Origin: Bryobacterales bacterium
GTDB lineage: Bacteria > Acidobacteriota > Terriglobia > Bryobacterales > UBA6623
Length of the DNA stretch: 64,000 bases
Reading direction: 5' to 3'
NCBI GenBank assembly: GCA_965206775.1
Contig: CBDBKU010000002.1
Location: 2,255,796-2,319,795 of the forward strand
Of this stretch, positions 4,488 through 48,945 are shown piece by piece (positions within the stretch are counted from its first letter, which is position 1; the number at the start of each line of letters is the position of its first letter). Below the pieces are notes generated by a model. The model searched no databases. It saw nothing but the letters and a program-made list of their open reading frames with translations, and was not told the origin of the DNA. The position numbers and the translations under genes are program-made.

Positions 4488-5156
4488 GGCATTGTCAAGC
4501 TGTTTCGACCAAGCGGTTCTGATCCGAATAGTCGGTGCGGGGATCTTCGCTCAGCGAACACCCGTCGCGGTGTTCCAAGTGGCGAAGGCCTGCTCCCGAA
4601 GGAGTCGATGATGGATCGCCTTGAGACGATGGCGTGCGAGCCTGAATGAGTTGTGAACGGCCGCATCGACCGCGAGAAAACCCTGCATCTGCGCTTCTGA
4701 CTTGAAACGACGCATCTGGCGTTCTCGCTCTCTTTCATGTGTGTTGGTGGGAAACCTCAGCCCGGTTGTTTTCGTACTGCCCGTTACGATGAGTAGCCGA
4801 TAGGCCGACTTCCCGACGGGCGGCCGCATAGCTCCGCAGCTTGCCGGTGACCGGCTGCAACGGCGATCGCCCTTTCCCCTTCAAGAGCTTGCGAAAAAAG
4901 CGCTTGGCTGCCCTTGCGTCCCGGCGGCGCAGGTTCTGAGCAAGGGCGGGACCGAATTTGCGACACCACAATCTGATCGCCTCCTAGGACACGATGACGC
5001 CGCGCTCGGCGAGTAGGTCTTCGACATCCCGGAAGCTGAGGGTGAACCGATAGTAGAGCCACACGGCGTGACTGATGATCGCGGGTGGGAAGCGGTGGCT
5101 TCGACACAAGGATCCCACCTATCTATTGTCCCCCACGGACCCAACTTGACAGTACC
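4488..5156 (-). mobile_element. IS6-family insertion sequence, degenerate copy (about 669 bp)
   Basis: The ends are GGCATTGTCAAGC (4488-4500) and, on the other strand, GGTACTGTCAAGTTGGGTCCGTGGG (5156-5132). These resemble the IS26-type GGCACTGTTGCAAA end. The interior is homologous to the 789-bp copy at 37130-37918 but about 115 bp shorter. Confidence 0.7.
4551..5107 (-). pseudogene. IS6-family transposase remnants (deletion, stop and frameshift)
   Basis: The pieces are split over three frames: ...WCRKFGPALAQNLRRRDARAAKRFFRKLLKGKGRSPLQPVTGKLRSYAAARREVGLSATHRNGQYENNRAEVSHQHT* and HERERERQMRRFKSEAQMQGFLAVDAAVHNSFRLARHRLKAIHHRLL. Relative to copy 2, the stretch HGRLGDVWHVDEVFVTIRGSRRYLWRAVDQDGDILDILVTRR, which holds the DDE aspartates, is missing. 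Confidence 0.7.
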
Positions 5157-6076
5157 TGTCTTGACCCTTGGCGAAATCGTCGACGTTTCGCACTCGCCTT
5201 CGTCCTGGCAATCGCGTCACCCTTGCCTCGTCGGCGCATTGCGGGCCCAGTATAGATATCTACTGCAGTCCTTGGGTCTTCCTCTCCTACCGTCACAGTC
5301 TGCGCGATTACGAAATCCACACCCTTGAGCGGACGCTCATCTGCCACTGACTCGAGATCGGCAACCTCCACTTGCAGTTGCAGGGTATACCTGCGCTGGC
5401 TGATTGCCGTCCTATGCGTGACCGACGGAGTCGTTTCCACCACTTGAAAACTTCGCATCGAATCGAGCAGTGGCTGGGGGATGCGACCCGAGGTTTTCGA
5501 TCATGCGCTAAGCGATGCCCTTCGGGTCGTTCGGTTCGTTCTCGAAGAGCAATGCGGGAATTCCGAGGTCAGTTTGCGTCCCACCTAGGGTCTAGCCAAG
5601 GTGCTTCGTCCGGTCGAAGAGCGATTGAACCTCCAACTCAGCACGACGGTCGTCGGTACCAGGGAGATCCGGGCTTACAGAGCGCGCGAGGTAGTGACTA
5701 TCAAGCCAGCTGTGCGTCGGCATTGGTTGGGCTCGCCGGCACGTGAGGACGCCGATACGGTAGTTGGGGAGAGCGTTTCCGGACGCCTGTCATCAGGATT
5801 CCTTCAGAAATGTCGGCAAGAACCGGAGCAGGATTCTTCGTTCTCGGAGAACGTATTGCCGTTCAAGTTCTTACCGTAGGCGAAGCCGTAGGGACTCTGG
5901 CGCCTTCCCGTCCAGATGTGCACGTGGAACGTCGCGGGACCGAAATCACGGAGCTACTTCGCGATAGCATCCGGCAAGCGCTCAGCGAGACAGAGTGCCC
6001 AGGGGCGCGAATTCTGATCGTCCTGCCCTGTTTCATCTGGCTTGACACGATCTGCCTAGTCTCCAATACTGGTCAT

Positions 6077-36170: not shown

Positions 36171-36311
36171 CACCGAGGCCAATGCGCTGCCAATCGCAGA
36201 CTCACACTTCCAACAACCCTTCTTGGTGCCCATTCTCTACACTGAAACCGATAATTGAACTTGCCTGGCAGTGGGCTTGGCCGCCTGTATCAATACGCAT
36301 ATAATTCGTTT

Positions 36312-36530
36312 GTGAGCCGAGCCTTTGACACAGCGATAGAGAAGATGTCGGCGCTCCCGCCCGAGGAACAGGACCGAATTGCGCAGTGGCTTCTCGGCGA
36401 GCTTCAGGATGAGGAACGCTGGACTCAAGCGTTTTCAAGTTCCCAACATGCCCTGAGCAGGCTCGCCGATGAGGCCCGAGCTGATATTAAAGCTGGCAGA
36501 GCGACGCAACTCGATCCTGACAAACTGTGA
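36312..36530 (+). CDS. Small antitoxin-like protein
   Basis: VSRAFDTAIEKMSALPPEEQDRIAQWLLGELQDEERWTQAFSSSQHALSRLADEARADIKAGRATQLDPDKL. The GTG at 36312 lies inside track ORF 36255-36530. Its stop overlaps the GTG of the downstream toxin-like ORF (GTGA). Confidence 0.65.
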   Translation: MSRAFDTAIEKMSALPPEEQDRIAQWLLGELQDEERWTQAFSSSQHALSRLADEARADIKAGRATQLDPDKL

Positions 36531-36796: not shown

Positions 36797-37129
36797 CTAA
36801 GCTCCAAGGCAGCCCAACGGGCCGGTAATTGGTTGCAGGCCGGGCGATCGGAGCTATCTGCTGACGGTTGGCCGACGCAACTCTCACGCCAGACACGGAA
36901 CCCGCTTCACGGGGTCAGTCATGCGAGTTGCTTCTGTCGGCGTGGCCCGTAATCGGCTCGGAGGCGAGGACTCAGTTTGGGGGACCGCCGCGGCCGCGGT
37001 AGTCGCGCCCATCCACGCAGGCTACTCACCCTCGTCAACGCCATGCTCTGCGAAAACCGACCTGGCAGCCGGAGTCTCTCCGTCGAGGCACTCGCATGAA
37101 CCGCCCGCGCCCTTGGAAACCTCTCCGGG

Positions 37130-37918
37130 GGTACTGTCAAGGTGGCGTCTGTGGAGAGACACTGGATCGGTGAAATCCTTGAATCGAGGGCACCGCTTCC
37201 CACCCGAGATCATCAGCCACGCCGTGTGGCTCTGTCATCGGTTCACCCTCAGCTTCCGGGATGTCGAAGACCTGCTCGCCTTGCGCGGCGTCACCGTGTC
37301 CTACGAGGCGATCCGATCGTGGCGTCGCAAATTCGGTCCCACCTTTGCTCGGAACCTGCGCCGTCGGCATGGCCGGCTGGGCGATGTCTGGCATGTGGAT
37401 GAGGTCTTCGTCACGATCCGCGGGTCACGCCGCTATCTCTGGAGGGCGGTGGACCAGGACGGCGACATCCTGGATATTCTGGTCACGCGCCGCCGGGACG
37501 CGGGAGCCGCTAAGCGCTTTTTCCGCAAGCTCATGAAGGGGCAAGGGGGATCGCCATGGCAGATGGTCACCGACAGGCTGCGTAGCTATGTGGCCGCCTG
37601 CCGGGAACTTGGCCTGTGGGCTACTCATCGAACCGGGCAGTCCGAGAACAACAGGGCTGAGGTGTCCCACCCGCACACCAGGGAGCAAGAACACCAAACG
37701 CGTCGTATCAAGCGCAGGCCCAGCGTTTTCTCGCGGTCCATGCGGCCACCCACAACTCATTCAGGCTCGCACGCCACCGTCTCAAGGCGATCCATCATCG
37801 ACTCCTTCGGGAGCGGGCCTTCACCACTTGGAAGACCGCGACGGGTATTCACTGAGCGAAGCACCACGCACCGATGTGCGGATCAGAACCGCTTCGGCGA
37901 AAATAACTTGACAATTTC
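37130..37918 (+). mobile_element. IS6-family insertion sequence, full length (789 bp), no recognisable 8-bp TSD
   Basis: The left end is GGTACTGTCAAGGTGGCGTCTGTGG (37130-). The right end is ...AACTTGACAATTTC (to 37918). The flanks TCTCCGGG and GGCATGGC differ. Confidence 0.75.
37170..37855 (+). pseudogene. IS6-family transposase with a 1-nt frameshift near 37710
   Basis: VKSLNRGHRFPPEIISHAVWLCHRFTLSFRDVEDLLALRGVTVSYEAIRSWRRKFGP...DVWHVDEVFVTIRGSRRYLWRAVDQDGDILDILV...NNRAEVSHPHTREQEHQTRRIK continues in the next frame as QAQAQRFLAVHAATHNSFRLARHRLKAIHHRLLRERAFTTWKTATGIH* (stop 37853-37855). Confidence 0.75.
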
Positions 37919-37998
37919 GGCATGGCTAATCACAGGCAAGAAACTCCGGAAACGCAAATCAGACCGCGCATGCTGATGTCTGAGAGTAAGGCTGACCC

Positions 37999-38642
37999 AT
38001 GAAATCCACACCAGAGAATCCTTCCTCAAATCGACTCACACCCGGCGTCAGTGACGAAGCCTTGCAGGCCGCCATCCAGGCGTCTGGCTATCCGCTTCAG
38101 ACTCAGGTGGCCCAGAACCTCTCCGAGAAGTTCTACATTCAAGAATAATGGAGCTATATCGACCGCCAGACGCAAGGTACTAAGGACGATCGATCTGGTC
38201 GCCTCGCGAATGCTCTCGGAATGGGAAAAATCTCAGCCTCGGGTTCGCCCTGAACTCAATCTAGTCATCAAATGTAAGAAGTCGGAGCTCCCATACGTCT
38301 TCTTCTTATCCGACCGCTACACTCGGCTACCCGACTTCCCGACCATCTCCGGGCTGAAGGCAAAGAACGTGGTCATTACTTCCGACGATGATCCCTCCAG
38401 TTGGCACATGCCGCTGTTGAGCGGATTGGGGCTCGATCAGCACTCCTTCCAGTCGGATTCCGTTCTGTGTAACCTTCAGCAAGTCCGTGAGGAACGGCAA
38501 GAAACTCGCTCTCTCGGGAAACGACCCCTACCAGAGCTTGATGCTACCGATATTGAAGGCAGTCGATCATTTCGACCAGACTCACATCCCTCCGCCGACG
38601 GCGCACTATTTCGACGGTCACCTCGTCGTTGGAGTCGGTGTC
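37999..38642 (+). pseudogene. Hypothetical PD-(D/E)xK-like gene with at least 3 frameshifts, 3' end cut by the IS1634-type element
   Basis: The pieces are MKSTPENPSSNRLTPGVSDEALQAAIQASGYPLQTQVAQNLSEKFYIQE*, then WSYIDRQTQGT, then RTIDLVASRMLSEWEKSQPRVRPELNLVIKCKKSELPYVFFLSD..., then SKSVRNGKKLALSGNDPYQSLMLPILKAVDHFDQTHIPPPTAHYFDGHLVVGVGV, in shifting frames. The D...(E/K)xK arrangement is IDLVAS...LVIKCKK. Confidence 0.45.
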
Positions 38643-40812
38643 CTAGCCCATGTTTAACATCGCTCGACCTGCTCGTCGTCGGCCAACACCCCAATTGGCC
38701 CCTGAATTCCAGCATTTCGTGCGGAAAGCTCGCAGAATCGCGTGTTTTGTGGTTGGTGCCCCCCCCTAGCCTCTGCTTGGTTCATTGGCTTGCCAATCCG
38801 TGTATTTGTAGTGGTCGAAATTGTAGTGGTCGAATCATCGTTAACTTCCGGGTTTCGCTGGATTGTTCGCCCCCACTCCTGCTAGCCTGAACCTCGTGTT
38901 CATCCGCCGCTCGCTCTACCGTCGCGCTCCCGGTGGGACCTCCTATGCCAACTTTCGCTTGGTCCGCTCCACCCGTGTCGGCGGCCGCGTCAAACAGATC
39001 ACCCTCGCCAACCTCGGCTCCGGCTTCGACCTGCCCCAGCAAGACTGGCCCACCCTCTGCCAGCTCGTCGAAGCCCTGGCCGCCGGCCAGCCCTTGCCGC
39101 CGCGCGCCGCTGCGGCCTCCCTGGTCCGACGCGCCCGCTCCATCGCCCGCCAAATCGTCGACTTCCACGGCCTGGAATCCGCCACCGACTCCCCCGTGTT
39201 GCTGGCGGTCGATACCGATTCGCTCCAGAACCTGCGGCCGCGCTCGGTCGGCGTCGAACACGCCCCCCTGTGGGCCCTCAACCAACTTGGGCTGCCCGCT
39301 TTGCTGCAAGCCCTCGGCCTCTCCAGGCAACTCCAGGCCTGCGCTGTCGGCTCCATCGTCGGGCGCCTCGCCGGCCGCTGCTCCGAACGCTCCACCAATC
39401 ATTGGCTGCGTTCCGACAGCGCCCTGGGCGAACTGCTTGGCACACCCTTCGAAGCGATCTGCGCCAGGCAGCTCTATCGCGCCTCCGACGCCCTCGTGCA
39501 GAACCGCCCCAGCATCGAGAAACACCTTTTCCAAGAGGCGCTTTCGCTCTTTGACCTGCGTCCGAGCGTGACCCTGTACGACCTCACCAACACGTATTTC
39601 GAGGGCCAGGCCAAAGCCCAGCCCGACGCCCGGCGCGGCCATTCCAAGGAGCGCCGTTCGGACTGTCCCCTGCTCACTCTCGCGCTCGTGCTCGACGCCA
39701 GCGGTTTCGTGCGCCGCTCGCAGGTGTTCGCCGGCAACGTGGGCGAAGCCAAGACCCTGCAGACGGTGCTCGAGGGCCTCGCGGTGCCGCGGGGCGCGCA
39801 CGTGGTTCTGGACCGCGGCATCGCCACCGAGCAGAACCTGACCTGGCTGCGCGAGCAGGGCTACTGCTACTTGGCGGTCAGCCGCGAGGCCAAGCGCCAG
39901 TTCGACCCAGCCGAGGCAGCGGCTCTGCAAACAGCCTCCGGTGACCCAGTCCTGGTGCACAAGGTGATCAGCGAGGACGGCCAGGAGGCGCGCCTGTACT
40001 GCTATTCGCAGCAGCGCCAGAAGAAGGAGCAGGCGATTGAGGACCGTCGTGCGCAGAGCTTGGAGCAAGCGCTGGAGCAGCTGCACGCGGGGCTGTCGCG
40101 GCCGCGCGCACGGCGCAAGCTGGAGGCTGTGCACAAGCGCGTGGGCCGGATGGTCGAGCGCAGCAAGGGCGCCTCACAGCACTACAAGATCTCGGTCGAG
40201 GCCGATACGGCAGGCGAGAAGGCCGTCGCGGTGCGCTGGCAGCGCCAACCGAAGGCAGGCTCGCGGGCGACCCATCCGGGCGTGTACTGCCTGCGCAGCA
40301 ACGACACCAGCTGGCAGGCCGAAGCGATGTGGCGGGCCTACATCGGCCTCACTGATGTCGAAGCCGTGTTCCGCTGCCTCAAGTCCGAACTGGGCCTGCG
40401 GCCGGTCTACCACAGCAAGCCGGAGCGCTCCGAGGGACACCTGTTCCTCACGGTGCTGGCCTACCAAGCGGTGCAGCTGATCCGGCGCAAGCTCAAACAG
40501 CACGGCGAGCACTCGAGCTGGACCACCCTGCGCACGATCCTAGCCACCCAACGCCGGGTGACCACCACGATCCAGTGCGCCAACGGCCAGACGCTGCACT
40601 TGCGCCGGACCACCCCGCCGGAAGAGCAACTGCAAGCACTGTATCAGTCTCTCGGCATCGCGGAACTGCCCGGCAAGACCAGCAAAATCGTGCTCTGATT
40701 CCGGCCCGATCCACTTTAGCGCGCACTTTGTAGTGCAACCACGCTTCCATTTCTCCTCTTAAGGTATTTATTGTCAGTAGTTTACTGAAATCGCATGTTA
40801 AACATGGGCTAG
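38643..40812 (+). mobile_element. IS1634-family (IS4 superfamily) insertion sequence, 2170 bp
   Basis: It has perfect 18-bp terminal inverted repeats, CTAGCCCATGTTTAACAT (38643-38660) and ATGTTAAACATGGGCTAG (40795-40812). A subterminal TTGTAGTGGTCGAA repeat occurs twice at 38804-38834. A single long transposase ORF lies inside. Confidence 0.85.
38896..40698 (+). CDS. IS1634-family DDE transposase
   Basis: VFIRRSLYRRAPGGTSYANFRLVRSTRVGGRVKQITLANLG... is followed by YDLTNTYFEGQAKAQPDARRGHSKERRSDCPLLTLALVLDASGFVRRSQVFAGNVGEAKTL and VVLDRGIATEQNLTWLREQGYCYLAV. A GTG start at 38896 is proposed inside track ORF 38863-40698. Confidence 0.85.
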   Translation: MFIRRSLYRRAPGGTSYANFRLVRSTRVGGRVKQITLANLGSGFDLPQQDWPTLCQLVEALAAGQPLPPRAAAASLVRRARSIARQIVDFHGLESATDSPVLLAVDTDSLQNLRPRSVGVEHAPLWALNQLGLPALLQALGLSRQLQACAVGSIVGRLAGRCSERSTNHWLRSDSALGELLGTPFEAICARQLYRASDALVQNRPSIEKHLFQEALSLFDLRPSVTLYDLTNTYFEGQAKAQPDARRGHSKERRSDCPLLTLALVLDASGFVRRSQVFAGNVGEAKTLQTVLEGLAVPRGAHVVLDRGIATEQNLTWLREQGYCYLAVSREAKRQFDPAEAAALQTASGDPVLVHKVISEDGQEARLYCYSQQRQKKEQAIEDRRAQSLEQALEQLHAGLSRPRARRKLEAVHKRVGRMVERSKGASQHYKISVEADTAGEKAVAVRWQRQPKAGSRATHPGVYCLRSNDTSWQAEAMWRAYIGLTDVEAVFRCLKSELGLRPVYHSKPERSEGHLFLTVLAYQAVQLIRRKLKQHGEHSSWTTLRTILATQRRVTTTIQCANGQTLHLRRTTPPEEQLQALYQSLGIAELPGKTSKIVL

Positions 40813-41021
40813 ACGCGCCGATGCTTGGGGTTCGCCTGACTGACTCCGGAACAAGAGCGCAGCTCCTTCCGTGGGTCAGAGTTGTACGGCACTCGTTTCA
40901 AGCTCGGGACTAGCGACACACGATACTGGTTCATCGTTGCCTTGGCCGTCGCACAATCACATTGACGCTTCCGATCTTCCGCAATTCCTCCTCAACCCCC
41001 ATGCCCACCTGGACAGAGACC

Positions 41022-41699
41022 CTATCCTACGTGGCCTGCGATACGGCACGGCATCCACTGCCGAGTCCAGTGCCTGTCTGTCTGCACATGACCGACGCGA
41101 ACGCTCTTGCAGACGTTGTCCGAAAACTCTTCTGACGGAAATCCTCGCGCCAAACGTAACACGACACCCTCCCGCAGGCCACCAAGCAGGGATGGCTCGC
41201 GGTGGGCATGCTCAACGAACGCGCGTACCTCCGCGACGGAGCCGAAGCAGCCCTTGTACAGCACAGGAACGATCGGGATTTCCCTGGACTTCGCATATGA
41301 CTCGACGCGGGTGAAATCTGCAAACCGGCCATTGCCGTCCCGTAGCGCAAAGGCATAGAAGGTTTCCTGCTCCTTCACGGGGTCGTACGTGATGCTGTGA
41401 ACTCCGTAGATGTCCTCGCCATAGAGAGAAACCTCGGGCTCGGTCACCTTCCAGGCGTGATGCTTCTTAACCATCGCCATCCATTTGGCGCCGGAAGGTG
41501 CTGATACGCTACGCCCATAAGTCTTCCCTGCGTGCAGGAGTGTGTTGCTTCCGTCGAGCTTCTCAGTCACAACGACCGCGTCCCCTACGAATCGCTCCGC
41601 ATTGGCATGCACATGGTCACCCCGACCGATCGCTGGAGACCAAGGCCAGTACGGCGTGGCTGGATACTTGGCACGCAAAGAAAGACTCTCCATTTTCAT
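41022..41699 (-). CDS. RNA ligase family protein (PF09414/DRB0094-like nucleotidyltransferase)
   Basis: MKMESLSLRAKYPATPYWPWSPAIGRGD... is followed by VVVTEKLDGSN (KxDGxN adenylylation motif, K47), SLYGEDIYG, FYAFAL, and REGVVLRL...KSVR. The ATG at 41699 overlaps the upstream stop by 4 nt. Confidence 0.75.
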   Translation of the reverse strand: MKMESLSLRAKYPATPYWPWSPAIGRGDHVHANAERFVGDAVVVTEKLDGSNTLLHAGKTYGRSVSAPSGAKWMAMVKKHHAWKVTEPEVSLYGEDIYGVHSITYDPVKEQETFYAFALRDGNGRFADFTRVESYAKSREIPIVPVLYKGCFGSVAEVRAFVEHAHREPSLLGGLREGVVLRLARGFPSEEFSDNVCKSVRVGHVQTDRHWTRQWMPCRIAGHVG

Positions 41700-42187
41700 C
41701 GCCGGGGTCGCGCGGCCTTGGAGGCGTGTTGGGGACAGAGTTGATCCACCTTCACCCCGAGCGTCTCGGTCAGTGCCTTTTGCTCTTCCCAATCGCTGTC
41801 TGTAGCGTTCAGGAGAATGGCATTCGCCACGACTGCAACTGCCAAGAACTTCCGGTCCGACCGGTCCAACGTATTGTCCGGCAACTCATCGAAGCCTCGC
41901 CCATCGTCCGCCGACTTCGTGATGGCAACTCTTCGGACTCGATCGTTCCACCACTGATGGTCGATCAGGTACTTGAAGAACATGTGGCCCGCACCCGGCA
42001 TTCCGGAGAACCTTAGGCTTTTCCCGTACTCCTCGAGGATCTCGCCCGCTTCATCGATGGCGACGACCTCGTGCTTTGTTATGGAATTGATTCTCTGTAC
42101 ACATAGAAGTTGACATTCCAAGTCGAAACGAGTCGCTGCCAGATTGGCGAGAATCGCAACATTAGTGTCGACGACGAATGCTGTCAT
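41696..42187 (-). CDS. PIN-like domain protein
   Basis: 163-aa ORF. It has MTAFVVDTNVAILAN (D7), AIDEAGEILEEY, DRSDRKFLAVAVVANA and LLNATDSDW, four acidic positions spaced as in PIN nucleases. It has 4-nt overlaps with both neighbours. Confidence 0.6.
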   Translation of the reverse strand: MTAFVVDTNVAILANLAATRFDLECQLLCVQRINSITKHEVVAIDEAGEILEEYGKSLRFSGMPGAGHMFFKYLIDHQWWNDRVRRVAITKSADDGRGFDELPDNTLDRSDRKFLAVAVVANAILLNATDSDWEEQKALTETLGVKVDQLCPQHASKAARPRR

Positions 42188-43545
42188 GCGGAATGCTCAA
42201 TCCTTCTCTTCAAGGAAGCTTCACTGATTGCGGCGATCTCGCCCATTTCGTCGCCGAAGAAGTTTTCCGGCCAGTTCTCGATCAATCCCCATTCATTCAA
42301 CCGCAGATCAGAAACGCTTGATGCCCCTCGCTGCGAAGTGACGAAATAGAGTTTCACGTCGTCAGAGGATACCCTCCCTTCAGCTACGCGACGCTGCAGA
42401 CGCCGCATCAGGTGCTCGCTGTGACTCTCGACAATGACCTGCACATTTCGCTCTGAGGCCACACTCAGCATTACGTCGGCAAGTCCGCTTTGTACGGCCG
42501 GATGCAAATGGATCTCCGGCTGTTCCATCAGCACCGCCGAGCCTTCCGGGACATAGTAGAGCAGAACCAATACAGGAAGAATTTGGGAGACTCCGAATCC
42601 GACGTCCACCAGTGACGTCCACGGCCCCTTTGGGGATGTTCTCACCATCGCGCGATACAAGTTGGTTCCCTTGGCGATTTCGTTGAGACGGAAGTCCTCG
42701 ATCAAACCAAGCTCTTTCAGCCAATGGGCGATCATTTCCTGGAATGTTTTTCGCCACATTCGGTATCCGAGACTCCTCGTCTCGTCGTCACGAGTCGCGG
42801 CAAGTATTGCGTCTACCGTGCGCTCGCCCCGGAGGCCGACGTCCTTAGGGCTCGACCCGGCCCAGCGATACTCGCGCCTAGGGTACTCGCGTAATGGTCC
42901 GAGATAGTAGACCGAGTCCATTCGGTTCTCGTACTCCAACTCGAAATCAGCGAGAAAATCCGAGTTCTGGACGTAGTTCCTCACTTGGTTCGGAAACAGG
43001 TGCGTCTTGACCGGGCGTGGCAGGGGCCAGGCTCGGCCCTGAGTGCGTACGAATCGGAATTCCTGGTCACCTGCGTCCAGCTCGAAGTCCTCTTCCGAGT
43101 CGGCCTGTGATTGCAACCTGAACTCTGTCTCGGCGAACCGGTATGCCAAACGGTAAGGCCAGGGACGCGCCCGCCTCAATCCGACTTCGCACTCCGTGCT
43201 GAGGCGGTCACCCCTGAACAACGGTCCCTTCGTAGGTCTCATGGGGTCCACAATCTTCAGCGTCTTGGGGAGCGTCCACTCCAATAGCCACCGGATCCGC
43301 GCTTCGTCGTCATGACCATGAGCGACTTCCGTGAAAGTCCCTAGGTTCACCATGTCCGCCGGACCGCCAAAATCGAGCACAATGCCACGGTCGGTGGCGT
43401 TTCTGGTCTGCTTTAGCAACAGGAGGAACTGCAGTAGGCTGCTCTTACCCGCGCTGTTGCTACCGAAGAAACCAGTTACCTTGCCAAGGTTCAAATCGGC
43501 TTCTCGCCAAGCCTTGAAATTCTCCAGCTTCATGCGGCTCAACAT
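42184..43545 (-). CDS. ABC/AAA_15-type ATPase with DUF3696-like C-terminus
   Basis: 453-aa ORF. MKLENFKAWREADLNLGKVTGFFGSNSAGKSSLLQFLLLL is the Walker A. VDVGFGVSQILPV is signature-like. GSAVLMEQPEIHLHPAVQ is the Walker B/D-loop. VIVESHSEHL is the H-loop. The C-terminus reads LNEWGLIENWPENFFGDE. Confidence 0.8.
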   Translation of the reverse strand: MLSRMKLENFKAWREADLNLGKVTGFFGSNSAGKSSLLQFLLLLKQTRNATDRGIVLDFGGPADMVNLGTFTEVAHGHDDEARIRWLLEWTLPKTLKIVDPMRPTKGPLFRGDRLSTECEVGLRRARPWPYRLAYRFAETEFRLQSQADSEEDFELDAGDQEFRFVRTQGRAWPLPRPVKTHLFPNQVRNYVQNSDFLADFELEYENRMDSVYYLGPLREYPRREYRWAGSSPKDVGLRGERTVDAILAATRDDETRSLGYRMWRKTFQEMIAHWLKELGLIEDFRLNEIAKGTNLYRAMVRTSPKGPWTSLVDVGFGVSQILPVLVLLYYVPEGSAVLMEQPEIHLHPAVQSGLADVMLSVASERNVQVIVESHSEHLMRRLQRRVAEGRVSSDDVKLYFVTSQRGASSVSDLRLNEWGLIENWPENFFGDEMGEIAAISEASLKRRIEHSA

Positions 43546-44259
43546 CTTTGTTACCCCTGCAAAGCATTGTAGATCCTAGGGCACGAATCGCACCCGGCCG
43601 TCTAGCGCCCAATCACAGTTGAGACGGGGACTGCTCTCGATGTAGAGCGGGAGCAGTGCGGGTAGGGCTCCGCATATTGAAGCCGGAGACGGTGAGGTGG
43701 CTGCCACGGGAGTTGCGGTGGGGAGCTGTCGCAGGCGGCTCTGGGGCGCGGGCTGTGCGAGCGGGACGGGTGGCGCAATCCGCGCGGGCGGCTGTACGCG
43801 GCCTCGGCGCGCAAGGCCATGCCGCGACTGGCGGTCCAGCTGGGGCTGGAGTTGCCCGCGGCGCAGCCGGACCCGCCGCGCTGGCGTTCCCGGCAGCGCG
43901 GGAGCGAGTCGCCCTTGGCGGAGACCGTGTGCGAGGGCAGCCCGCTGGAACTAATCTACCTGCAGCAGAGAGGGACAGCGCCGCCGCGTCTCTTGGCTGT
44001 CCCCGGCCGCAACGTCCCTAAAGCGACCGGAATGCCGCACCGCAGCCTGCCGGCGAAACCTCCTGCGCGGCTGGCGGGACCGCCTCTCCCTCCCGGCGTT
44101 TTCCGACGGCCCTTCCGGAATCGAGAAAGGGCGTGAAGGTTTCTACTTATCGGCAAGAATAGGCTGAGCCAGTCCTTGTATCGTGCACCGTGGGGGCTTA
44201 CGATACACGTGCCGGGAAGTCCCACAAGGGGAAGCCTGGCTGACACAGGAGGATTGGTC

Positions 44260-47200
44260 ATGCGCTTAGGATATCGGCGTGCTTTGCTGCTAGCGACGCT
44301 TCTGCTTATCTTCGGCTCACTGGGTTGGGCTCAGACGACTGCCGAACTCGGCGGCACGGTAACCGACGCCACCGGAGCCGTCATTCCTGACGTGTCGGTC
44401 ACTGTTACTCACCTCAGTACCGGCGTGGCGCGGACGACCACGTCCAACGAACAGGGGTATTTTGTCGTCCCCTTCCTCCAACCGGGAGACTACAGCGCCA
44501 ACATCAGGAAGGAAGGATTTCGGCCAATCACCCAAACCGGAATTGTCTTGTACGTAGGCGAGCCGGCCCGCATCAATTTCGCCATGGATATCGGCTCGTT
44601 GACCGAAGAAGTGACAGTCACGGCCGCAGCTCCGCTCCTGGAGACGGCGACCCCGGCCCAAGGCCAAGTGATCGACAACCAGAAGATTGTGGACCTGCCG
44701 CTCAACGGCCGCGACTACATTCAGTTGGCACTGCTTTCTGCGGGTGCTGGTTCCGTGCCGTCCGGACGCTTCAATACGTTCAGCGCTAGTGGCATGCGCG
44801 CCAACCAGAACAACTTCATGCTGGACGGCGTGGACAACAACAGCATGCAGAGAGCCGGTCAGGCTCGGCGCGCAGAAGTCATCAAGCCTTCGATCGACGC
44901 GATTCAGGAGTTCAAGCTCTCGACGAACTCGTACTCGGCAGAATTTGGCCGAGGCGGAGGGGCCGTCGTCAATGTAAGCCTGAAATCAGGCACGAACGGG
45001 GTTCACGGGACCGTCTTCGAGTTTCTTCGCAATGAAACGCTGGACGCGAAGAATTTCTTTGATCCGCCCAACCGGCCCAGACCGCCCTTTAAGCGGAATC
45101 AGTTCGGCTTCGCGGTCGGCGGGCCGATTGTAAGGGACAAGACGTTTTTCTTTGGCGACTATGAAGGCTCGCGAATCCGCGAGTCCCGCACCGTCAACAA
45201 CACCATTCCGACTCCTCTGCAACTTCAGGGCGACTTCAGCGAGTTGCTTCCCGGTACGAGTATCTACGATCCCGCCACCTACGACCCAGCGACAAAGCAG
45301 CGCCAGGTTTTTCCAAATAACCAGATGCCCTCGTCCAGATTCGATCCGATCGGGGCTCAAGTGCTTTCTTTCTATCCAACTCCGAACAAGCCAGGGCTTA
45401 CCCGGAATTTCCTGTTCAACCCGCCGCGACCGGAAGATTTGGATCGTTGGGACGTTAAGGTTGACCACAACTTGAGCGAAAACGACCGCTTGTTCGTTCG
45501 CTACAGCGTCTCGGATAACCTCGTCGGGTCGACACCAAACCTGCCGGATCCTGCGTGGGGCGGAGGGCAGCTGGCCACACCATTTGATCACTGGGGAAAG
45601 AATCTACTTGTGAACTACAATCGAGTTTTTTCACCCTCATTCATCATGGAGATGAAAGCCGCGTGGAACAGGATCTTCACACTGCGCTCGTCTCCGATTG
45701 ACGTGAATGTCAATCAGCAGATAGGCCTGCAAGGAGTCGAGGTTGGCGATCCGGGCATGGCCCAGTTCACGGTTCAAGGTCATCAGACCGTCGGATTGGG
45801 TTCCTGGATTCCCAACAAGTCAGGAAGTCAGAATCGGCAGCTGATCGCCAATTTCACATGGATTCGTGGAAACCATACCGTCAAGTTCGGGATGAATTTC
45901 AACTGGCTGCAACACTTTCTCAACAATTCGTCGAACGCCCATGGCGTGTTCACTTACGACGGCGGATACACGCGAAACTCCGACACGCTCAGAGAAGGCA
46001 GTTCCGCCGCCGACCTGTTGCTCGGCACGACGACTCAGGCCCGGGTGTCCACTTGGGTTTGGGAGGACATGAGGCGGCCCTACTACGACAGCTACGTGCA
46101 GGATGAATGGCGGATCTCTTCGCGGCTGACGTTGAACCTTGGGCTGCGGTACGAACTGCATCCGCCTTGGGTGGATCGGAAGAATAACGGCGCGAATTTG
46201 GATTTCTCTAACCGCGCCGATCCGCGCATTGTGCTCATGAAAGACGGCTCGCGATTCGACCGGGCACTGGTCAGTACCGACACGAACAACTTTGCACCCC
46301 GAGTCGGGATCGTCTATCGCCTGACGGACAGTACGGTCGTGCGGTCAGGGTATGGATTCTTCTATGGCAACACAAACTGGAAGAACGTCTTGGCGACCGT
46401 CCCTCCTCATTACTATGCCGCTACAGTGCAAACGGACCGCGTGAATCCAACTCTGCTGTTGAAAGAAGGGCTGCCCCATGACTTGATCAGCCCGCAGAAC
46501 GCGCGCAACATCGGCTTTGGGCCGATCGACATGGACTTGCCCATGCCTTACACCCAGCAATGGAACTTCTCGATCCAGCACCAATTGCCGGGCCAAACGT
46601 TAGTTGAGATCGGGTACGTCGGCTCGGCGTCGAATCGACTCTCGAGAAACTACGACATCAATGTGCCGCTCCCGGGACCCGGTCCAGTGAACACGAGGCG
46701 CCCGATCCGCTCGCTGGAGGTGCCTCCGGATGGCACTACGATCGGACCGATTGCCGCCTTGGGCTACTTCGAGCGAACCGCGAACGCGAACTACAATTCC
46801 TTGCAGACGCGTCTGGAGAAGCGCTTGACGCACGGCTTGAGCGCGCTGGCAAGTTACACCTGGTCGAAGAATCTCAGCGACGGGCGCGGAGCTGGAGGCG
46901 TCGGCGCGACATCTGGTCTGCGGCCGCAAAATCCTCACAATCTCAGTGCCGAGCGGGCCCTGAGCGACGAGCACTTCGCCCATCGTTTCGTTGCAAGTCC
47001 GATCTACCAACTGCCGTTCGGGCGCGGCAAGACCTACCTGAACAATTCCCCCTCAGCGGTAAATGCTCTGCTGGGCGGCTGGACAGTGGCAAGCATCGTC
47101 ACTTTTTCGAGCGGTGGACGCGCAAACCTCAGTGTGCGAGGCAACCCTGCCAACACAGGCACGCCCAACCGGCCCAACGTCGTCGGGGACTGGCGACTGG

Positions 47201-47511
47201 ATTCTGGTACGCGATCCCTCGATGGCTGGTTTGATACTGCCGCCTTCGAGCGGAACCCGGCCTTCACGTACGGCAATGCTGCCCGAAATCTGATCGAGGC
47301 TCCGGGGCTGGTGAACGTAGACTTGGCCATTTACAAGGCCTTCTCAGTCACAGAGGATCTTACAGTGCAGTTTCGAGCCGAAGCGTTCAACGCATCGAAC
47401 ACTCCGGCCTTCAGGCGGCCGAACACACAATTCGGCAACCGGAACTTCAGTCTCATTGGAAGCGCTGGCAGGCCCCGGAATCTGCAGTTCGGGTTGAAAG
47501 TGATCTTCTGA
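44260..47511 (+). CDS. TonB-dependent receptor with CarboxypepD_reg-like N-terminal domain
   Basis: The ATG at 44260 follows AGGAGG (44248-44253). MRLGYRRALLLATLLLIFGSLGWAQ is the signal, followed by TTAELGGTVTDATGAVIPDVSVTVTHLSTGVARTTTSNEQGYFVVPFLQPGDYSANIRKEGF. The plug region is IVDLPLNGRDYIQLALL. The C-terminus is NLQFGLKVIF*. Confidence 0.9.
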   Translation: MRLGYRRALLLATLLLIFGSLGWAQTTAELGGTVTDATGAVIPDVSVTVTHLSTGVARTTTSNEQGYFVVPFLQPGDYSANIRKEGFRPITQTGIVLYVGEPARINFAMDIGSLTEEVTVTAAAPLLETATPAQGQVIDNQKIVDLPLNGRDYIQLALLSAGAGSVPSGRFNTFSASGMRANQNNFMLDGVDNNSMQRAGQARRAEVIKPSIDAIQEFKLSTNSYSAEFGRGGGAVVNVSLKSGTNGVHGTVFEFLRNETLDAKNFFDPPNRPRPPFKRNQFGFAVGGPIVRDKTFFFGDYEGSRIRESRTVNNTIPTPLQLQGDFSELLPGTSIYDPATYDPATKQRQVFPNNQMPSSRFDPIGAQVLSFYPTPNKPGLTRNFLFNPPRPEDLDRWDVKVDHNLSENDRLFVRYSVSDNLVGSTPNLPDPAWGGGQLATPFDHWGKNLLVNYNRVFSPSFIMEMKAAWNRIFTLRSSPIDVNVNQQIGLQGVEVGDPGMAQFTVQGHQTVGLGSWIPNKSGSQNRQLIANFTWIRGNHTVKFGMNFNWLQHFLNNSSNAHGVFTYDGGYTRNSDTLREGSSAADLLLGTTTQARVSTWVWEDMRRPYYDSYVQDEWRISSRLTLNLGLRYELHPPWVDRKNNGANLDFSNRADPRIVLMKDGSRFDRALVSTDTNNFAPRVGIVYRLTDSTVVRSGYGFFYGNTNWKNVLATVPPHYYAATVQTDRVNPTLLLKEGLPHDLISPQNARNIGFGPIDMDLPMPYTQQWNFSIQHQLPGQTLVEIGYVGSASNRLSRNYDINVPLPGPGPVNTRRPIRSLEVPPDGTTIGPIAALGYFERTANANYNSLQTRLEKRLTHGLSALASYTWSKNLSDGRGAGGVGATSGLRPQNPHNLSAERALSDEHFAHRFVASPIYQLPFGRGKTYLNNSPSAVNALLGGWTVASIVTFSSGGRANLSVRGNPANTGTPNRPNVVGDWRLDSGTRSLDGWFDTAAFERNPAFTYGNAARNLIEAPGLVNVDLAIYKAFSVTEDLTVQFRAEAFNASNTPAFRRPNTQFGNRNFSLIGSAGRPRNLQFGLKVIF

Positions 47512-47778: not shown

Positions 47779-48945
47779 TCAAGACACTTCGGCCCCTTCG
47801 TTGAGGATGGAGAGATACTGGTCGTAAACGAAAAGTCGGTTGCGGCTTCTTCCGGTGATCTCCCGCGCCACTTCGTGCGTGACCAGCAGTTCCATGGCCG
47901 AGGCGACTGTCGGAAAGGAGAGCCCGGTATCGAGACTTGCCGCCGGCAGCGATAAGATCGCTCGCTTCTTGAGCACGTTGTGTACGCGGAGCACCGACCC
48001 GACCCTCCGACCACCAGCAGCTTGGATGCCGTTTTGGTCCTGCCGAAACATTGTGGAGAGACGTTCGGCGGTGGAAACCGCACCCTCGGCTGTCTGCTTC
48101 ACTCCTTCAAGAAAGAAGACGAGCCATCTCTCCCAGTCTCCGGTGCGACGCACATGATTCAAGAGGTCGTAGTAATCACTGCGGTGTTGCTTGAAATACA
48201 GGCTCAGATACAGAAGCGGCTCGCGCAGCATCCCGGCGCGGCACAGCAGCAGAGTTATCAGCAGCCGACCAACGCGGCCGTTGCCGTCGAGGAAGGGGTG
48301 AATGGTCTCGAACTGCACGTGCGCGAGGCCCGCCCGCAACAGTACGGATAACCCGTCGTCCTCGGCATGGAGAAATCGCTCAAACTCCGTCATGCAGTCG
48401 GGTACGGCGGTGTGCGGTGGCGGCACGAAGCCAGCATTACCCGGTCGGGTCCCGCCAATCCAGTTTTGCGAGCGGCGGAATTCACCGGGCGTTTTGGCCT
48501 GGCCCCGGCCACTCGACAACAGCACGCCGTGGGTTTCGCGGATTAGGCGATTCGACAGGGGAAAACCATCCCGCAGGCGGCGCAAGCCGTGTTCAATCGC
48601 CGCCACGTAGTTCGAGACTTCGTGCGCGTCGTTTAGCGGCACCCTGGGCGCTCTCTCGACTTCGAATCGTAGTAGGTCCGACAGCGACGACTGCGTGCCC
48701 TCGATCTGAGACGAAAGCACCGCTTCCTTGCGTAGGTACGTATACAGAAAAAAGGCCTCGTTCGGAAGGAGAGTCGAGATGCCGTCGAGGCGGCCCAGGG
48801 CCAGCACCGCCGACTCCAGCAACTGTTGCAGGCCGCCAGCCAGAACTAGGGGCGGTTGCGGCGGCAGCGGCAGCGGTACAAAGGCTCGAACCGACTCAGA
48901 GCCGACGCTCGTCACGTCATAGTCCCCGATTTCTCCGCGTTGCAT
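47779..48945 (-). CDS. Fic family protein (Fic_N + Fic + C-terminal wHTH-like)
   Basis: 388-aa ORF. It has EAVLSSQIEGTQSSLSDLL (Fic_N) and IHPFLDGNGRVGRLLITLLL (Fic motif). Confidence 0.85.
   Translation of the reverse strand: MQRGEIGDYDVTSVGSESVRAFVPLPLPPQPPLVLAGGLQQLLESAVLALGRLDGISTLLPNEAFFLYTYLRKEAVLSSQIEGTQSSLSDLLRFEVERAPRVPLNDAHEVSNYVAAIEHGLRRLRDGFPLSNRLIRETHGVLLSSGRGQAKTPGEFRRSQNWIGGTRPGNAGFVPPPHTAVPDCMTEFERFLHAEDDGLSVLLRAGLAHVQFETIHPFLDGNGRVGRLLITLLLCRAGMLREPLLYLSLYFKQHRSDYYDLLNHVRRTGDWERWLVFFLEGVKQTAEGAVSTAERLSTMFRQDQNGIQAAGGRRVGSVLRVHNVLKKRAILSLPAASLDTGLSFPTVASAMELLVTHEVAREITGRSRNRLFVYDQYLSILNEGAEVS

What the first reader, a model, noticed from the sequence alone, without database searches (positions are those of the whole stretch)
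41022..43545. Translationally coupled ATPase (DUF3696-like) / PIN-like / RNA-ligase operon: candidate undescribed RNA-targeting defence or RNA damage-and-repair module
Three minus-strand ORFs are packed with 4-nt stop/start overlaps (42184-42187 and 41696-41699), so they are almost certainly one operon. Gene 1 is an ABC/AAA_15-type ATPase. It has Walker A GSNSAGKS (aa 28-35), LMEQPEIHLHP, ESHSEHL and a DUF3696-like tail NWPENFFGDE. Gene 2 has PIN-like spacing of acidic residues (VVDTNV, AIDEAGE, DRKFLAVA, NATDSDW). Gene 3 has the RNA-ligase-family hallmarks KYPATPYWPWSP and the adenylylation motif EKLDGSN (K47). ATPase-plus-nuclease pairs are the standard architecture of several known defence systems (Septu, Gabija, PARIS, OLD-family). 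I cannot name a described system in which such a pair is fused operonically to an RNA ligase. One plausible logic is an ATPase sensor that licenses a PIN RNase, with the ligase reversing or limiting self-damage. This would parallel anticodon-nuclease versus phage Rnl/Pnk conflicts, but with the repair arm host-encoded. The operon sits in a mobile, TA-rich and IS-rich island. It is visibly less GC-rich than its flanks and is convergent with a decayed PD-(D/E)xK-like gene.
Basis: partly seen in the sequence, partly recalled or inferred. Interest (0 to 1): 0.85.

Follow-up and report, generated by a model that had tools for sequence, protein, structure and literature searches.

The report
HEC-03 phage defence with built-in RNA ligase
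This three-gene operon is a known anti-phage system (HEC-03: a sensor ATPase plus an RNA-cutting PIN nuclease) carrying a conserved but experimentally untested third gene, an RNA ligase that most likely re-seals or limits the nuclease's own RNA damage.

Summary
Three minus-strand genes (ATPase 42184-43545, PIN 41696-42187, RNA ligase 41022-41699) are joined by ATGA overlaps, and the reported motifs are at the stated positions.

The system is not undescribed. Genes 1 and 2 match PADLOC's HEC-03B and HEC-03A models full-length (E 2.9e-202 and 1.2e-60). HEC-03 is a two-gene ABC-ATPase/PIN system with demonstrated anti-phage activity (Payne et al., bioRxiv 2024).

The ligase is the interesting part.
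- It follows the PIN gene in 72 of 80 related loci from at least 8 phyla.
- It co-evolves with both partners (Mantel r 0.73-0.79) and is the most conserved of the three genes.
- No fourth gene is conserved.
- Distant plasmid-borne HEC-03 cassettes (Aeromonas, Azotobacter, Rhodococcus, Tistrella) also carry a ligase in the same slot, but from a different PF09414 subfamily. This suggests independent recruitment.
- The validated Pseudomonas HEC-03 has no ligase. Neither PADLOC nor the HEC-03 paper includes one.
- A 2016 in-silico survey, known to me only through a secondary citation, apparently predicted a PIN/ATPase/HNH/RNA-ligase conflict system.

Most likely mechanism: the ATPase senses infection and releases the PIN RNase, and the ligase reverses or buffers self-inflicted RNA nicks. 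This is inference, and the PIN end chemistry is unresolved.

Verdict: a new variant of a known kind, of moderate interest.

The parts
42184..43545 (-). Gene 1: ABC-type ATPase (453 aa) with a C-terminal DUF3696 helix. It is the HEC-03 ATPase and a homologue of Menshen NsnB. Presumed sensor/regulator.
   Evidence: PADLOC HEC-03B E 2.9e-202 over 1-451 of 453 aa; NsnB E 7.8e-62. Pfam AAA_15 7.6e-24, AAA_21 5.8e-20, DUF3696 4.4e-9. Walker A G28-S35 read directly from the sequence.
41696..42187 (-). Gene 2: stand-alone PIN-domain nuclease (163 aa). It is the HEC-03 PIN effector.
   Evidence: PADLOC HEC-03A E 1.2e-60, full length. AF2 model pLDDT 88.5. Foldseek PDB top hits are VapC2 (3zvk, E 2.8e-4), SSO1118 PIN, HARP RNase P, M. 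tuberculosis VapC and SMG6. Acidic residues D7, D45, E53, D111 and D132 are invariant and D130 is >=90% conserved in 36 homologues. Sub-threshold PIN_3 or PIN Pfam hits occur in 21 and 18 of 36 members.
41022..41699 (-). Gene 3: minimal ATP-dependent RNA ligase (225 aa), a nucleotidyltransferase domain only. It is a conserved accessory gene of this HEC-03 subtype.
   Evidence: Pfam PF09414 E 2e-19, 70.8 bits against a cut-off of 27, covering 2-170 of 171 profile positions. Invariant motifs: I TEK47LDG, Ia R63-S64, III LYGE95D, IIIa F114/F117, IV RE177GVVLR, V CK198SVR. No PADLOC model matches. Present directly downstream of PIN in 72 of 80 related loci.
42184..42187 (-). ATGA stop/start overlap between the ATPase and PIN genes (translational coupling).
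   Evidence: Sequence read. The same 4-nt overlap occurs in 52 of the 73 cassettes analysed (72 related loci plus the window), and a 1-nt overlap in 14.
41696..41699 (-). ATGA stop/start overlap between the PIN and ligase genes (translational coupling).
   Evidence: Sequence read. A 4-nt overlap occurs in 23 of the same 73 cassettes and a 1-nt overlap in 5; roughly thirty others fall within about +-65 nt, and about a dozen large negative values plus six uncalled starts are artefacts of the crude start/stop calling.

Best explanation
This is a HEC-03-type anti-phage or abortive-infection cassette of a three-gene subtype.

**Proposed mechanism**
- The ABC ATPase is homologous to NsnB and has a DUF3696 tail. 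It holds and regulates the PIN nuclease and acts as the infection sensor.
- On activation, the PIN domain cleaves RNA. The target is most likely tRNA or another component of the translation apparatus, as with VapC-like PINs.
- The co-translated RNA ligase re-seals these nicks. It would act as an enzymatic antitoxin or safety catch that buffers leaky PIN activity in uninfected cells, and/or lets the cell recover once the threat has passed.

**Shown here**
- Family membership of all three proteins.
- The operon structure.
- Conserved, co-evolving synteny.
- Intact catalytic motifs.

**Taken from the literature**
- HEC-03 defends against phages, both genes are needed, and over-expression is toxic.

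**Inferred**
- The sensor role of the ATPase.
- The RNA target.
- That the ligase acts on the PIN's products.
For: **HEC-03 identity**
- PADLOC matches are full-length for genes 1 and 2.
- The two-gene HEC-03 protects E. coli, needs both genes, and could not be IPTG-induced because of toxicity.

**Linkage of the ligase**
- 72 of 80 loci from Acidobacteriota, Alpha- and Gammaproteobacteria, Latescibacterota, Gemmatimonadota, Spirochaetia, Binatia, Rhodothermales and Thermodesulfobacteriota show ATPase->PIN->ligase on one strand.
- The modal junction is a 4-nt overlap.
- No fourth conserved gene exists, and no kinase, phosphatase or 2H gene is present.
- Pairwise-identity matrices of the three proteins correlate, with Mantel r 0.73-0.79 and p = 0.001.
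- The ligase is the most conserved gene: mean pairwise identity 71.6%, against 66.5% for the ATPase and 62.2% for the PIN. This fits an enzyme acting on a conserved host substrate rather than on a fast-evolving phage trigger.

**Apparent independent recruitment**
- Plasmid-borne HEC-03 cassettes have PINs only 31-34% identical to ours, yet also carry a PF09414 ligase in the same slot.
- That ligase belongs to another subfamily. It scores 32 bits against ours, whereas 150 other cluster representatives score at least 111 bits.

**RNA-repair affinity of the ligase family**
- Its multi-domain relatives are 'Swiss Army Knife' proteins combining 2H phosphoesterase, RNA ligase, DSP phosphatase and a P-loop kinase.

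**Active sites and analogy**
- The ligase and PIN catalytic residues are invariant.
- In Menshen, NsnB's DUF3696 tail is predicted to dock a PIN-like domain.
- A prior in-silico proposal held that the ligase neutralises the nuclease.
Against: - The validated Pseudomonas HEC-03 works with no ligase. Eight of 80 close relatives lack an intact ligase: seven give no ligase hit, and L044 keeps only a frameshifted remnant. The ligase is therefore dispensable for defence itself.
- End chemistry is unresolved. PF09414 ligases need 3'-OH and 5'-P ends. One line of literature states that VapC products carry 5'-OH (PMC6459853), and VapC expression induces the 2',3'-cyclic-phosphate-responsive rtcBA operon (PMC7790460). 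If this PIN leaves such ends, a lone ligase could not repair them.
- The ligase structure could not be modelled (pLDDT 35), and no solved-structure relative was found by sequence.
- There is no direct evidence of a PIN-ligase or ATPase-ligase contact.
- No experiment exists on any three-gene version.
Confidence: 0.5

Rival explanations
1. Cut-and-reseal effector. The PIN and ligase act together offensively. The PIN excises one or more nucleotides from a tRNA or rRNA loop, or cuts twice. The ligase then rejoins the ends, producing a shortened, circularised or scrambled RNA that phage repair enzymes cannot restore. This would be functionally analogous to RloC's wobble-nucleotide excision.
For: The ligase is tightly coupled and co-evolves with the PIN. 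A ligase was recruited to the same slot apparently twice. RloC is a precedent for frustrating phage RNA repair (title and abstract of PMC2610378, listed). Jumbo phages encode homologous ligases that could otherwise undo simple nicks.
Against: Two-gene HEC-03 already defends without a ligase. Nothing suggests the PIN cuts twice. The family's fusion partners are repair enzymes, not toxins.
Confidence: 0.1
2. Addiction or stabilisation module of mobile elements rather than dedicated phage defence. The ATPase-PIN pair acts as the toxin and the ligase as an enzymatic (type-IV-like) antitoxin, so that loss of the cassette kills or arrests the cell.
For: The cassettes sit on conjugative or mobilizable plasmids next to Hok/Gef and AbiEii genes. 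In this window the cassette is beside IS elements. Flanks are variable and GC is low. HEC-03 is toxic on induction.
Against: Two-gene HEC-03 has measured anti-phage activity. For addiction, the antitoxin must be less stable than the toxin, and nothing here addresses that. The two roles are not mutually exclusive.
Confidence: 0.15
3. Passenger or generalist repair gene. The ligase is a general RNA-repair enzyme riding on the same mobile cassette. It might, for example, counter RNA damage from other toxins or phages, with no specific functional link to the PIN.
For: The ligase family is broad and mostly stand-alone: 1376 clusters at E<=1e-3. The ligase is dispensable in some HEC-03 loci.
Against: Junctions overlap by 4 nt. 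Position and order are fixed in 72 of 80 loci across at least 8 phyla. The three genes co-evolve. A different ligase subfamily occupies the identical slot in a distant HEC-03 clade.
Confidence: 0.1
4. DNA-level system. The PIN-like nuclease nicks DNA or RNA:DNA hybrids, as FEN-like PIN relatives do, and the ligase seals nicks that have an RNA or DNA 3'-OH.
For: The PIN-like superfamily includes DNA nucleases (general knowledge; Matelska 2017). An HNH DNase occupies the third slot in Acinetobacter plasmids.
Against: The best structural matches are the VapC, HARP and SMG6 RNases. The third gene is of the PF09414 RNA-ligase family, whose fused relatives are RNA-repair proteins.
Confidence: 0.05

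Closest known systems
HEC-03 (Hma-embedded candidate 03; Payne et al., bioRxiv 10.1101/2024.01.29.577857; PADLOC-DB models PDLC04147 and PDLC04148)
   Same: Both core proteins match full-length (E 2.9e-202 and 1.2e-60). They are 56% (ATPase) and 51% (PIN) identical to the tested P. cichorii proteins. Gene order is the same, and the ATPase and PIN genes overlap in both.
   Different: The tested and modelled system has two genes and natively no ligase. This cassette adds a translationally coupled RNA ligase that is conserved in most of its clade.
Menshen (NsnABC)
   Same: The ATPase is an NsnB homologue with the same ABC-ATPase + DUF3696 architecture (NsnB E 7.8e-62). In Menshen, the DUF3696 tail is predicted to dock a PIN-like domain of NsnC.
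   Different: There is no NsnA (ParB-DUF262) gene. The PIN here stands alone and keeps its catalytic acidic residues, whereas NsnC has an inactive PIN fused to a separate toxin domain. Menshen has no ligase.
PIN / ATPase / HNH / 'ATP-grasp' RNA-ligase conflict system predicted by Burroughs & Aravind 2016 (NAR 44:8525), as summarised in Matelska et al. 2017 (PMC5499597)
   Same: [quoted passage not shown] The PIN family here gives weak PIN_3 hits. An HNH-bearing variant exists on Acinetobacter plasmids.
   Different: I could not read the primary paper. It is therefore unverified that its ATPase is the DUF3696/HEC-03 type or that its loci overlap these. It was a prediction only and was never linked to HEC-03.
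PrrC / RloC anticodon nucleases versus phage T4 Pnk + Rnl1 repair
   Same: An ABC-ATPase-regulated RNase damages translation RNA, and an ATP-dependent RNA ligase repairs it (general knowledge; cites Amitsur 1987).
   Different: In that case the nuclease is a HEPN domain leaving 2',3'-cyclic-P and 5'-OH ends, so Pnk is required. The repair arm is phage-encoded and works as counter-defence. Here the ligase is host-encoded, sits in the same operon, and has no end-healing enzyme.
VapBC type II toxin-antitoxin systems
   Same: A VapC-like PIN fold with the four-acidic-residue pocket.
   Different: There is no VapB antitoxin. The upstream partner is a 453-aa ABC ATPase, and the downstream partner is an enzyme rather than a binding antitoxin.
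Bacterial RNA-repair cassettes (Pnkp-Hen1, Pnkp1-Rnl-Hen1, RtcAB, Swiss-Army-Knife proteins)
   Same: An ATP-dependent RNA ligase of the same superfamily. SAK proteins contain domains of both ligase subfamilies found with HEC-03.
   Different: Those systems combine the ligase with kinase, phosphatase, 2H or methyltransferase end-healing modules and encode no nuclease. This cassette has a nuclease and no healing enzymes.

Membership tests
HEC-03 (PADLOC / Payne 2024) | ABC ATPase matching the HEC-03 ATPase model | tested here: met
   PDLC04148 HEC-03B E 2.9e-202, residues 1-451 aligned to profile positions 1-455 of 458.
HEC-03 (PADLOC / Payne 2024) | Adjacent small PIN-domain protein matching the HEC-03 PIN model | tested here: met
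   PDLC04147 HEC-03A E 1.2e-60, residues 4-157 aligned to 3-157 of 159. The genes overlap by 4 nt.
HEC-03 (PADLOC / Payne 2024) | Two-gene composition | tested here: not met
   A third, translationally coupled gene (the ligase) is present and conserved in 72 of 80 relatives. The validated Pseudomonas loci have none. This makes the cassette a variant rather than excluding it from the family.
HEC-03 (PADLOC / Payne 2024) | Anti-phage activity that requires both genes | not testable with these tools
   Shown only for the P. cichorii system expressed in E. coli.
PIN-domain nucleases (VapC-like) | PIN fold | tested here: met
   AF2 pLDDT 88.5, pTM 0.86. Apart from one PIN-containing archaeal helicase entry, the 30 best Foldseek PDB hits are PIN proteins, with TM about 0.45-0.57.
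PIN-domain nucleases (VapC-like) | Conserved acidic quartet (D-E-D-D) | tested here: met
   D7, E53 (and D45), D111 and D132 are invariant and D130 is >=90% conserved in 36 homologues. Their positions within the model's pocket were not measured.
PIN-domain nucleases (VapC-like) | Pfam PIN-clan model above the gathering threshold | tested here: not met
   The window protein has no Pfam hit. Family members give only sub-threshold PIN_3 or PIN hits, with best E-values of 0.0024 and 7.5e-4.
ATP-dependent RNA ligases (PF09414; covalent nucleotidyltransferases) | Family model above the threshold | tested here: met
   PF09414 at 70.8 bits against a cut-off of 27, E 2e-19, covering profile positions 2-170 of 171.
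ATP-dependent RNA ligases (PF09414; covalent nucleotidyltransferases) | Motif I KxDG lysine plus motifs III, IV and V | tested here: met
   K47 (TEKLDG), E95 (LYGED), E177-G178 (REGVV) and K198 (CKSVR) are invariant in 35 sequences. Motif assignment is by inspection.
ATP-dependent RNA ligases (PF09414; covalent nucleotidyltransferases) | Nucleotidyltransferase fold | tested here: inconclusive
   The AF2 model failed (pLDDT 34.9). PDB sequence and profile searches gave no significant hit.
Menshen (NsnABC) | NsnB-type ABC ATPase with DUF3696 | tested here: met
   NsnB E 7.8e-62. DUF3696 E 4.4e-9.
Menshen (NsnABC) | NsnA (ParB-DUF262 sensor) and NsnC (inactive PIN plus C-terminal toxin domain) | tested here: not met
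   No further conserved gene flanks the cassette. The PIN is 163 aa, stands alone and keeps its catalytic residues. Definitions are taken from PMC12065111.
VapBC type II TA | Cognate small VapB antitoxin gene immediately upstream | tested here: not met
   The upstream gene is the 453-aa ATPase, overlapping by 4 nt.
RNA-repair cassettes (Pnkp/Hen1, Rtc, SAK) | Ligase accompanied by end-healing or end-modifying enzymes (kinase, phosphatase, 2H, cyclase, methyltransferase) | tested here: not met
   None is present in the operon, and none is conserved in the flanks of 80 loci.
Burroughs & Aravind 2016 PIN/ATPase/HNH/RNA-ligase conflict system | PIN_3-group PIN with an ATPase and an ATP-grasp-type RNA ligase (with or without HNH) in one operon | tested here: inconclusive
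   The components are present, but PIN_3 hits are only sub-threshold. HNH is absent here and present in an Acinetobacter variant. The primary paper is not held, so its definitions and loci could not be compared.

The most novel reading that the evidence does not exclude
The ligase is not a repair arm but half of a two-enzyme RNA-editing weapon. After ATPase activation, the PIN excises nucleotides from a tRNA or rRNA loop and the ligase re-seals the gap. The result is covalently intact but non-functional RNA that phage-encoded ligases, such as the homologues in jumbo phages, cannot repair. A milder and more probable novel reading (about 0.35-0.4) is a self-healing immune system, in which a host-encoded ligase makes PIN-mediated translational arrest reversible.
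Probability: 0.1. Interest if true: 0.85.

Novelty: new variant of a known kind. Interest (0 to 1): 0.5.

Why it matters
Abortive-infection and toxin-type defences are usually pictured as one-way damage, with any repair supplied by the phage (T4 Pnk and Rnl1 against PrrC).

Here a validated defence core (HEC-03) carries its own RNA ligase in most of one large clade. A paralogous ligase fills the same slot in a distant clade. That recurrence implies strong selection for pairing this PIN RNase with re-ligation.

If the ligase reverses the PIN's cuts, several things would follow.
- It would be an enzymatic antitoxin and a mechanism for reversible, non-suicidal immunity.
- It would predict the PIN's end chemistry (5'-P and 3'-OH).
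- It might explain the toxicity seen when the two-gene system is over-expressed.
- It would suggest that jumbo-phage homologues of this ligase act as counter-defence.

On the practical side, annotation tools (PADLOC, DefenseFinder) currently miss the third gene. Cultivable hosts with plasmid-borne triads (Aeromonas, Azotobacter, Rhodococcus, Tistrella) make the hypothesis directly testable.

Tried and rejected
- **Ligase structure.** The AlphaFold2 model was unusable (pLDDT 34.9). The 35-sequence alignment was at least 70% identical throughout, so no fold search was run on it.
- **Ligase and PIN against the PDB.** phmmer and profile searches of PDB sequences gave only chance-level hits.
- **Promoter and terminator scan of 40650-44250.** No matches, fewer than in shuffled sequence. 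Transcription signals are undefined, and the organism probably does not use E. coli-like consensus sequences.
- **tRNA and Rfam scans of the whole window.** Nothing found. No linked ncRNA or tRNA integration site is evident.
- **A fourth conserved gene or a replacement for the ligase.** None was found. Ligase-less loci simply lack a third gene.
- **'Decayed PD-(D/E)xK gene'.** No support.
- **Primary literature.** Attempts to read Krishnan et al. 2020 and Burroughs & Aravind 2016 failed because they are not held. Prior art therefore rests on a secondary citation.
- **Direct ligatability of PIN products.** I first assumed this from general two-metal nuclease chemistry. I withdrew it as a firm claim after finding reports of 5'-OH VapC products and of Rtc induction by VapC.
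- **Start and stop calling.** My calls were crude. The large negative PIN-ligase distances for some loci are artefacts of HSP-end extension and should be ignored. Only the modal values are used.


Full report
**1. Observation**

ORF listing confirms three minus-strand genes:
- 42184-43545, 453 aa;
- 41696-42187, 163 aa;
- 41022-41699, 225 aa from the ATG. The open frame continues upstream to a TTG at 41792.

Both junctions are ATGA stop/start overlaps, read directly.

- ATPase: Walker A G28-S35, LMEQPEIHLHP and ESHSEHL.
- PIN: VVDTNV with D7.
- Ligase: KYPATPYWPWSP and TEK47LDG.

The operon's GC is 0.570 against 0.615 for the window, in the lowest 1.6% of 2.5-kb windows. The adjacent TonB-receptor gene is similarly low, at 0.578.

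Neighbouring genes:
- an IS6/IS240-type DDE gene (36921-37976);
- an IS4-type DDE_Tnp_1 transposase (38863-40698, convergent with the ligase);
- a CarboxypepD_reg/TonB-type outer-membrane receptor (44176-47511);
- a Fic protein (47779-48945).

The 'decayed PD-(D/E)xK gene' is not supported.

**2. What the genes are**

*Gene 1.* Pfam finds AAA_15, AAA_21 and DUF3696. PADLOC's HEC-03B model matches end to end (E 2.9e-202), followed by Menshen NsnB (7.8e-62) and PDC-M55A.

*Gene 2.*
- It has no Pfam hit but matches PADLOC HEC-03A end to end (E 1.2e-60).
- An AlphaFold2 model built on 36 homologues is confident (pLDDT 88.5).
- Its best PDB matches are PIN domains: VapC2, SSO1118, HARP RNase P, M. 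tuberculosis VapCs and SMG6.
- D7, D45, E53, D111 and D132 are invariant, and D130 is >=90% conserved.
- Family members give recurrent sub-threshold PIN_3 and PIN hits.

*Gene 3.*
- It matches PF09414 RNA_ligase well above threshold.
- Nucleotidyltransferase motifs I, Ia, III, IIIa, IV and V are invariant across 35 homologues.
- It matches no PADLOC model.
- Its structure could not be modelled, and no PDB relative was detectable by sequence.

**3. The pair is a named, validated system**

Payne et al. (bioRxiv 10.1101/2024.01.29.577857) define HEC-03 as an ABC ATPase plus a VapC-like PIN protein. They found it embedded in Hma systems.

They report that it reduces plaquing of phages in E. coli, that both genes are required, and that the strain was not IPTG-induced because of toxicity. 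The paper swaps the A/B labels relative to PADLOC.

The tested system is from P. cichorii ATCC 10857 and has two genes. Neither the main text nor the supplements mention an RNA ligase.

I looked up the identical PIN protein in Pseudomonas genomes. The native locus is ATPase-PIN followed by a convergent unrelated gene, with no ligase. A P. aeruginosa-type relative is likewise two-gene.

**4. The ligase is a genuine, conserved third component**

I scanned one genome per species (GTDB) with the PIN alignment. This gave 172 confirmed loci, of which the best 80 were returned.

*Synteny in those 80 loci*
- tblastn shows ATPase->PIN->ligase on one strand in 72 of them.
- They span Acidobacteriota, Alpha- and Gammaproteobacteria, Latescibacterota, Gemmatimonadota, Spirochaetia, Binatia, Rhodothermales and Thermodesulfobacteriota.
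- The modal junctions are 4-nt overlaps. Of the 73 cassettes analysed (72 loci plus the window), 52 show this for ATPase/PIN and 23 for PIN/ligase.
- No other flanking gene family recurs in more than 9 loci. The cassette is therefore exactly three genes set in variable surroundings.
- Ligase-less loci have nothing in its place. L044 keeps a frameshifted ligase remnant.

*Co-evolution (53 loci with all three genes intact)*
- Pairwise-identity matrices of the three proteins correlate, with Mantel r 0.73-0.79 and p = 0.001.
- The ligase is the most conserved gene: 71.6%, against 66.5% (ATPase) and 62.2% (PIN).

**5. A second, distant triad clade with a different ligase**

tblastn of the PIN against PLSDB found 12 plasmids. 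I inspected six.

| Plasmid host | Third gene |
|---|---|
| Azotobacter chroococcum pAcX50e | RNA ligase family protein |
| Aeromonas veronii | RNA ligase family protein |
| Aeromonas salmonicida | RNA ligase family protein |
| Rhodococcus aetherivorans | RNA ligase family protein |
| Tistrella mobilis pTM2 | RNA ligase family protein |
| Acinetobacter soli | HNH_2 endonuclease |

- The five ligase-bearing plasmids show 'DUF3696 protein / hypothetical / RNA ligase family protein'. The genes lie in the same order, within a few nucleotides of one another in all but Rhodococcus (71 nt).
- In the three of these that were scanned (Azotobacter, Rhodococcus, Tistrella), the ATPases and PINs match the HEC-03 models (E 1e-61 to 1e-132, and about 1e-24 to 1e-28).
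- All five ligases match PF09414 (about 1e-31 to 1e-33) but no PADLOC model.
- These PINs are 31-34% identical to ours and the ATPases 38-44%, but the ligases only about 26%.
- On a common phmmer scale, our ligase scores 32 bits against the Azotobacter type, and at least 111 bits against each of 150 other cluster representatives. The Azotobacter type scores 160-200 bits against Swiss-Army-Knife repair proteins.
- Those SAK proteins contain two ligase domains plus 2H, DSP-phosphatase and P-loop kinase domains.

The two HEC-03 clades therefore use paralogous ligases. The most economical reading is that a ligase was recruited or replaced independently in the same slot. That is strong evidence of a functional need for RNA ligation next to this PIN. 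The wider family's association with RNA-repair architectures supports an RNA-sealing activity.

**6. Mechanism**

*From homology and the literature*
- HEC-03 is an ABC-ATPase-regulated PIN nuclease system with anti-phage activity.
- In the related Menshen system, NsnB's DUF3696 tail is predicted to dock a PIN-like domain. That is a plausible model for ATPase-PIN association here.

*Inferred*
- The PIN cuts translation-related RNA.
- The ligase re-seals those cuts, acting as a safety catch or recovery device.

*Consistent observations*
- The ligase is the slowest-evolving gene, which fits a conserved host substrate.
- End-healing enzymes are completely absent.
- The two-gene form is toxic on induction.

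*Main uncertainty*
- PF09414-type ligases need 3'-OH and 5'-P ends.
- Two-metal nucleases such as Toprim AriB do leave such ends.
- However, PMC6459853 states that VapC products carry 5'-OH, and VapC induces the cyclic-phosphate-sensing rtcBA operon.
- The repair model therefore makes a sharp and testable prediction about this PIN's products.

Rival explanations are listed separately with their evidence: an offensive cut-and-reseal mechanism, a plasmid or mobile-element addiction module, a passenger repair gene, and DNA-level action.

**7. Comparison with known systems, and novelty**

The cassette is a member of HEC-03 by its two defining proteins, with an extra gene. It fails membership tests for:
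- Menshen, because there is no NsnA and no NsnC-type toxin;
- VapBC, because there is no VapB;
- classical RNA-repair cassettes, because there are no healing enzymes.

No held paper mentions DUF3696 together with RNA ligase.

Matelska et al. [quoted passage not shown] In that laboratory's usage, 'ATP-grasp RNA ligases' are the ATP-dependent Rnl-type enzymes. I could not read the primary paper.

The architecture was therefore probably foreseen in silico. To my knowledge from the searchable literature, it has never been connected to HEC-03 or tested.

I rate the finding a new variant of a known kind, with interest 0.5. The conserved and twice-recruited ligase is nonetheless a real, experimentally open question.

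Noticed in passing
window 38863-40698 (+); also L083 2047-3882: An IS4-type DDE_Tnp_1 transposase (611 aa, GC 0.678 against 0.570 for the operon) lies convergent to the ligase. The same 611-aa transposase follows the identical triad on an independent metagenome contig, and two other contigs show the same TonB-receptor neighbour. The arrangement is therefore real in the population and not an assembly artefact.
   Followed up: partly
window 36921-37976 (+): A 351-aa ORF has an IS240/IS6-type DDE domain only at residues 156-269 and a long, low-complexity N-terminal extension. It is probably a decayed or mis-started IS copy.
   Followed up: no
window 38051-38890 (+) and 36255-36530 (+): A 279-aa ORF and a 91-aa ORF have no Pfam hits. 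The latter has an antitoxin-like look (charged and helical) but was not examined.
   Followed up: partly
window 47779-48945 (-): A Fic/DOC family protein (Fic_N + Fic) lies two genes from the cassette. Its possible role in a defence or toxin island was not examined.
   Followed up: no
L087 4538-5296 (Acinetobacter soli plasmid pAS843-2): A distant HEC-03-like pair carries an HNH_2 endonuclease in the slot where other clades have the RNA ligase, just downstream of an N-6 DNA methylase. The ATPase there is annotated as split into two CDSs.
   Followed up: partly
L044 6487-6901: A frameshifted remnant of the ligase ('MLKYPKTPYWPYSP...' in one frame and '...NVCKSVRAGHV' in another) lies downstream of an intact ATPase-PIN pair in a Spirochaetia MAG. 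This looks like ligase loss in progress.
   Followed up: partly
phage records H1-H15 (e.g. LR756502.1 485612-486241; Xanthomonas phage XacN1 150657-151244; Agrobacterium phage Atu_ph07 66531-67148): Full-length homologues of this minimal ligase, 31-40% identical, occur almost only in jumbo and mega-phages of over 300 kb. One is mis-annotated as '2'-5' RNA ligase'. They are candidate counter-defence genes against RNA-nicking systems such as HEC-03.
   Followed up: no
P0309, P0314, P0327, P0340, P0357 (1083-1390 aa): 'Swiss Army Knife' RNA-repair proteins carry two tandem PF09414 domains. One is close to the window's ligase and one to the plasmid-type HEC-03 ligase. They also carry 2H, DSP-phosphatase and P-loop kinase domains.
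   Followed up: partly
L098-L102 (Pseudomonas, 3628-5483): The two-gene HEC-03 of the P. aeruginosa type sits beside genes with a filamentous-phage coat-protein signature (Phage_Coat_B, weak hit) and a HigB-like toxin pair. This suggests carriage on a Pf-like prophage.
   Followed up: no
L001-L080 record titles: All of the triad-bearing genomes in L001-L080 are uncultured MAGs, many from a few long-read MAG projects and several with names typical of host-associated consortia (for example Candidatus Palauibacter). 60-78% protein identity across phyla implies recent horizontal spread within a shared habitat. The habitat itself was not checked.
   Followed up: no
window 43546-44175: The 630-bp region between the divergent ATPase and TonB-receptor genes is GC-rich (0.684) and has no sigma-70-like promoter match. 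Metagenome gene callers place a 105-aa ORF without Pfam hits here (L081 2564-2881).
   Followed up: no
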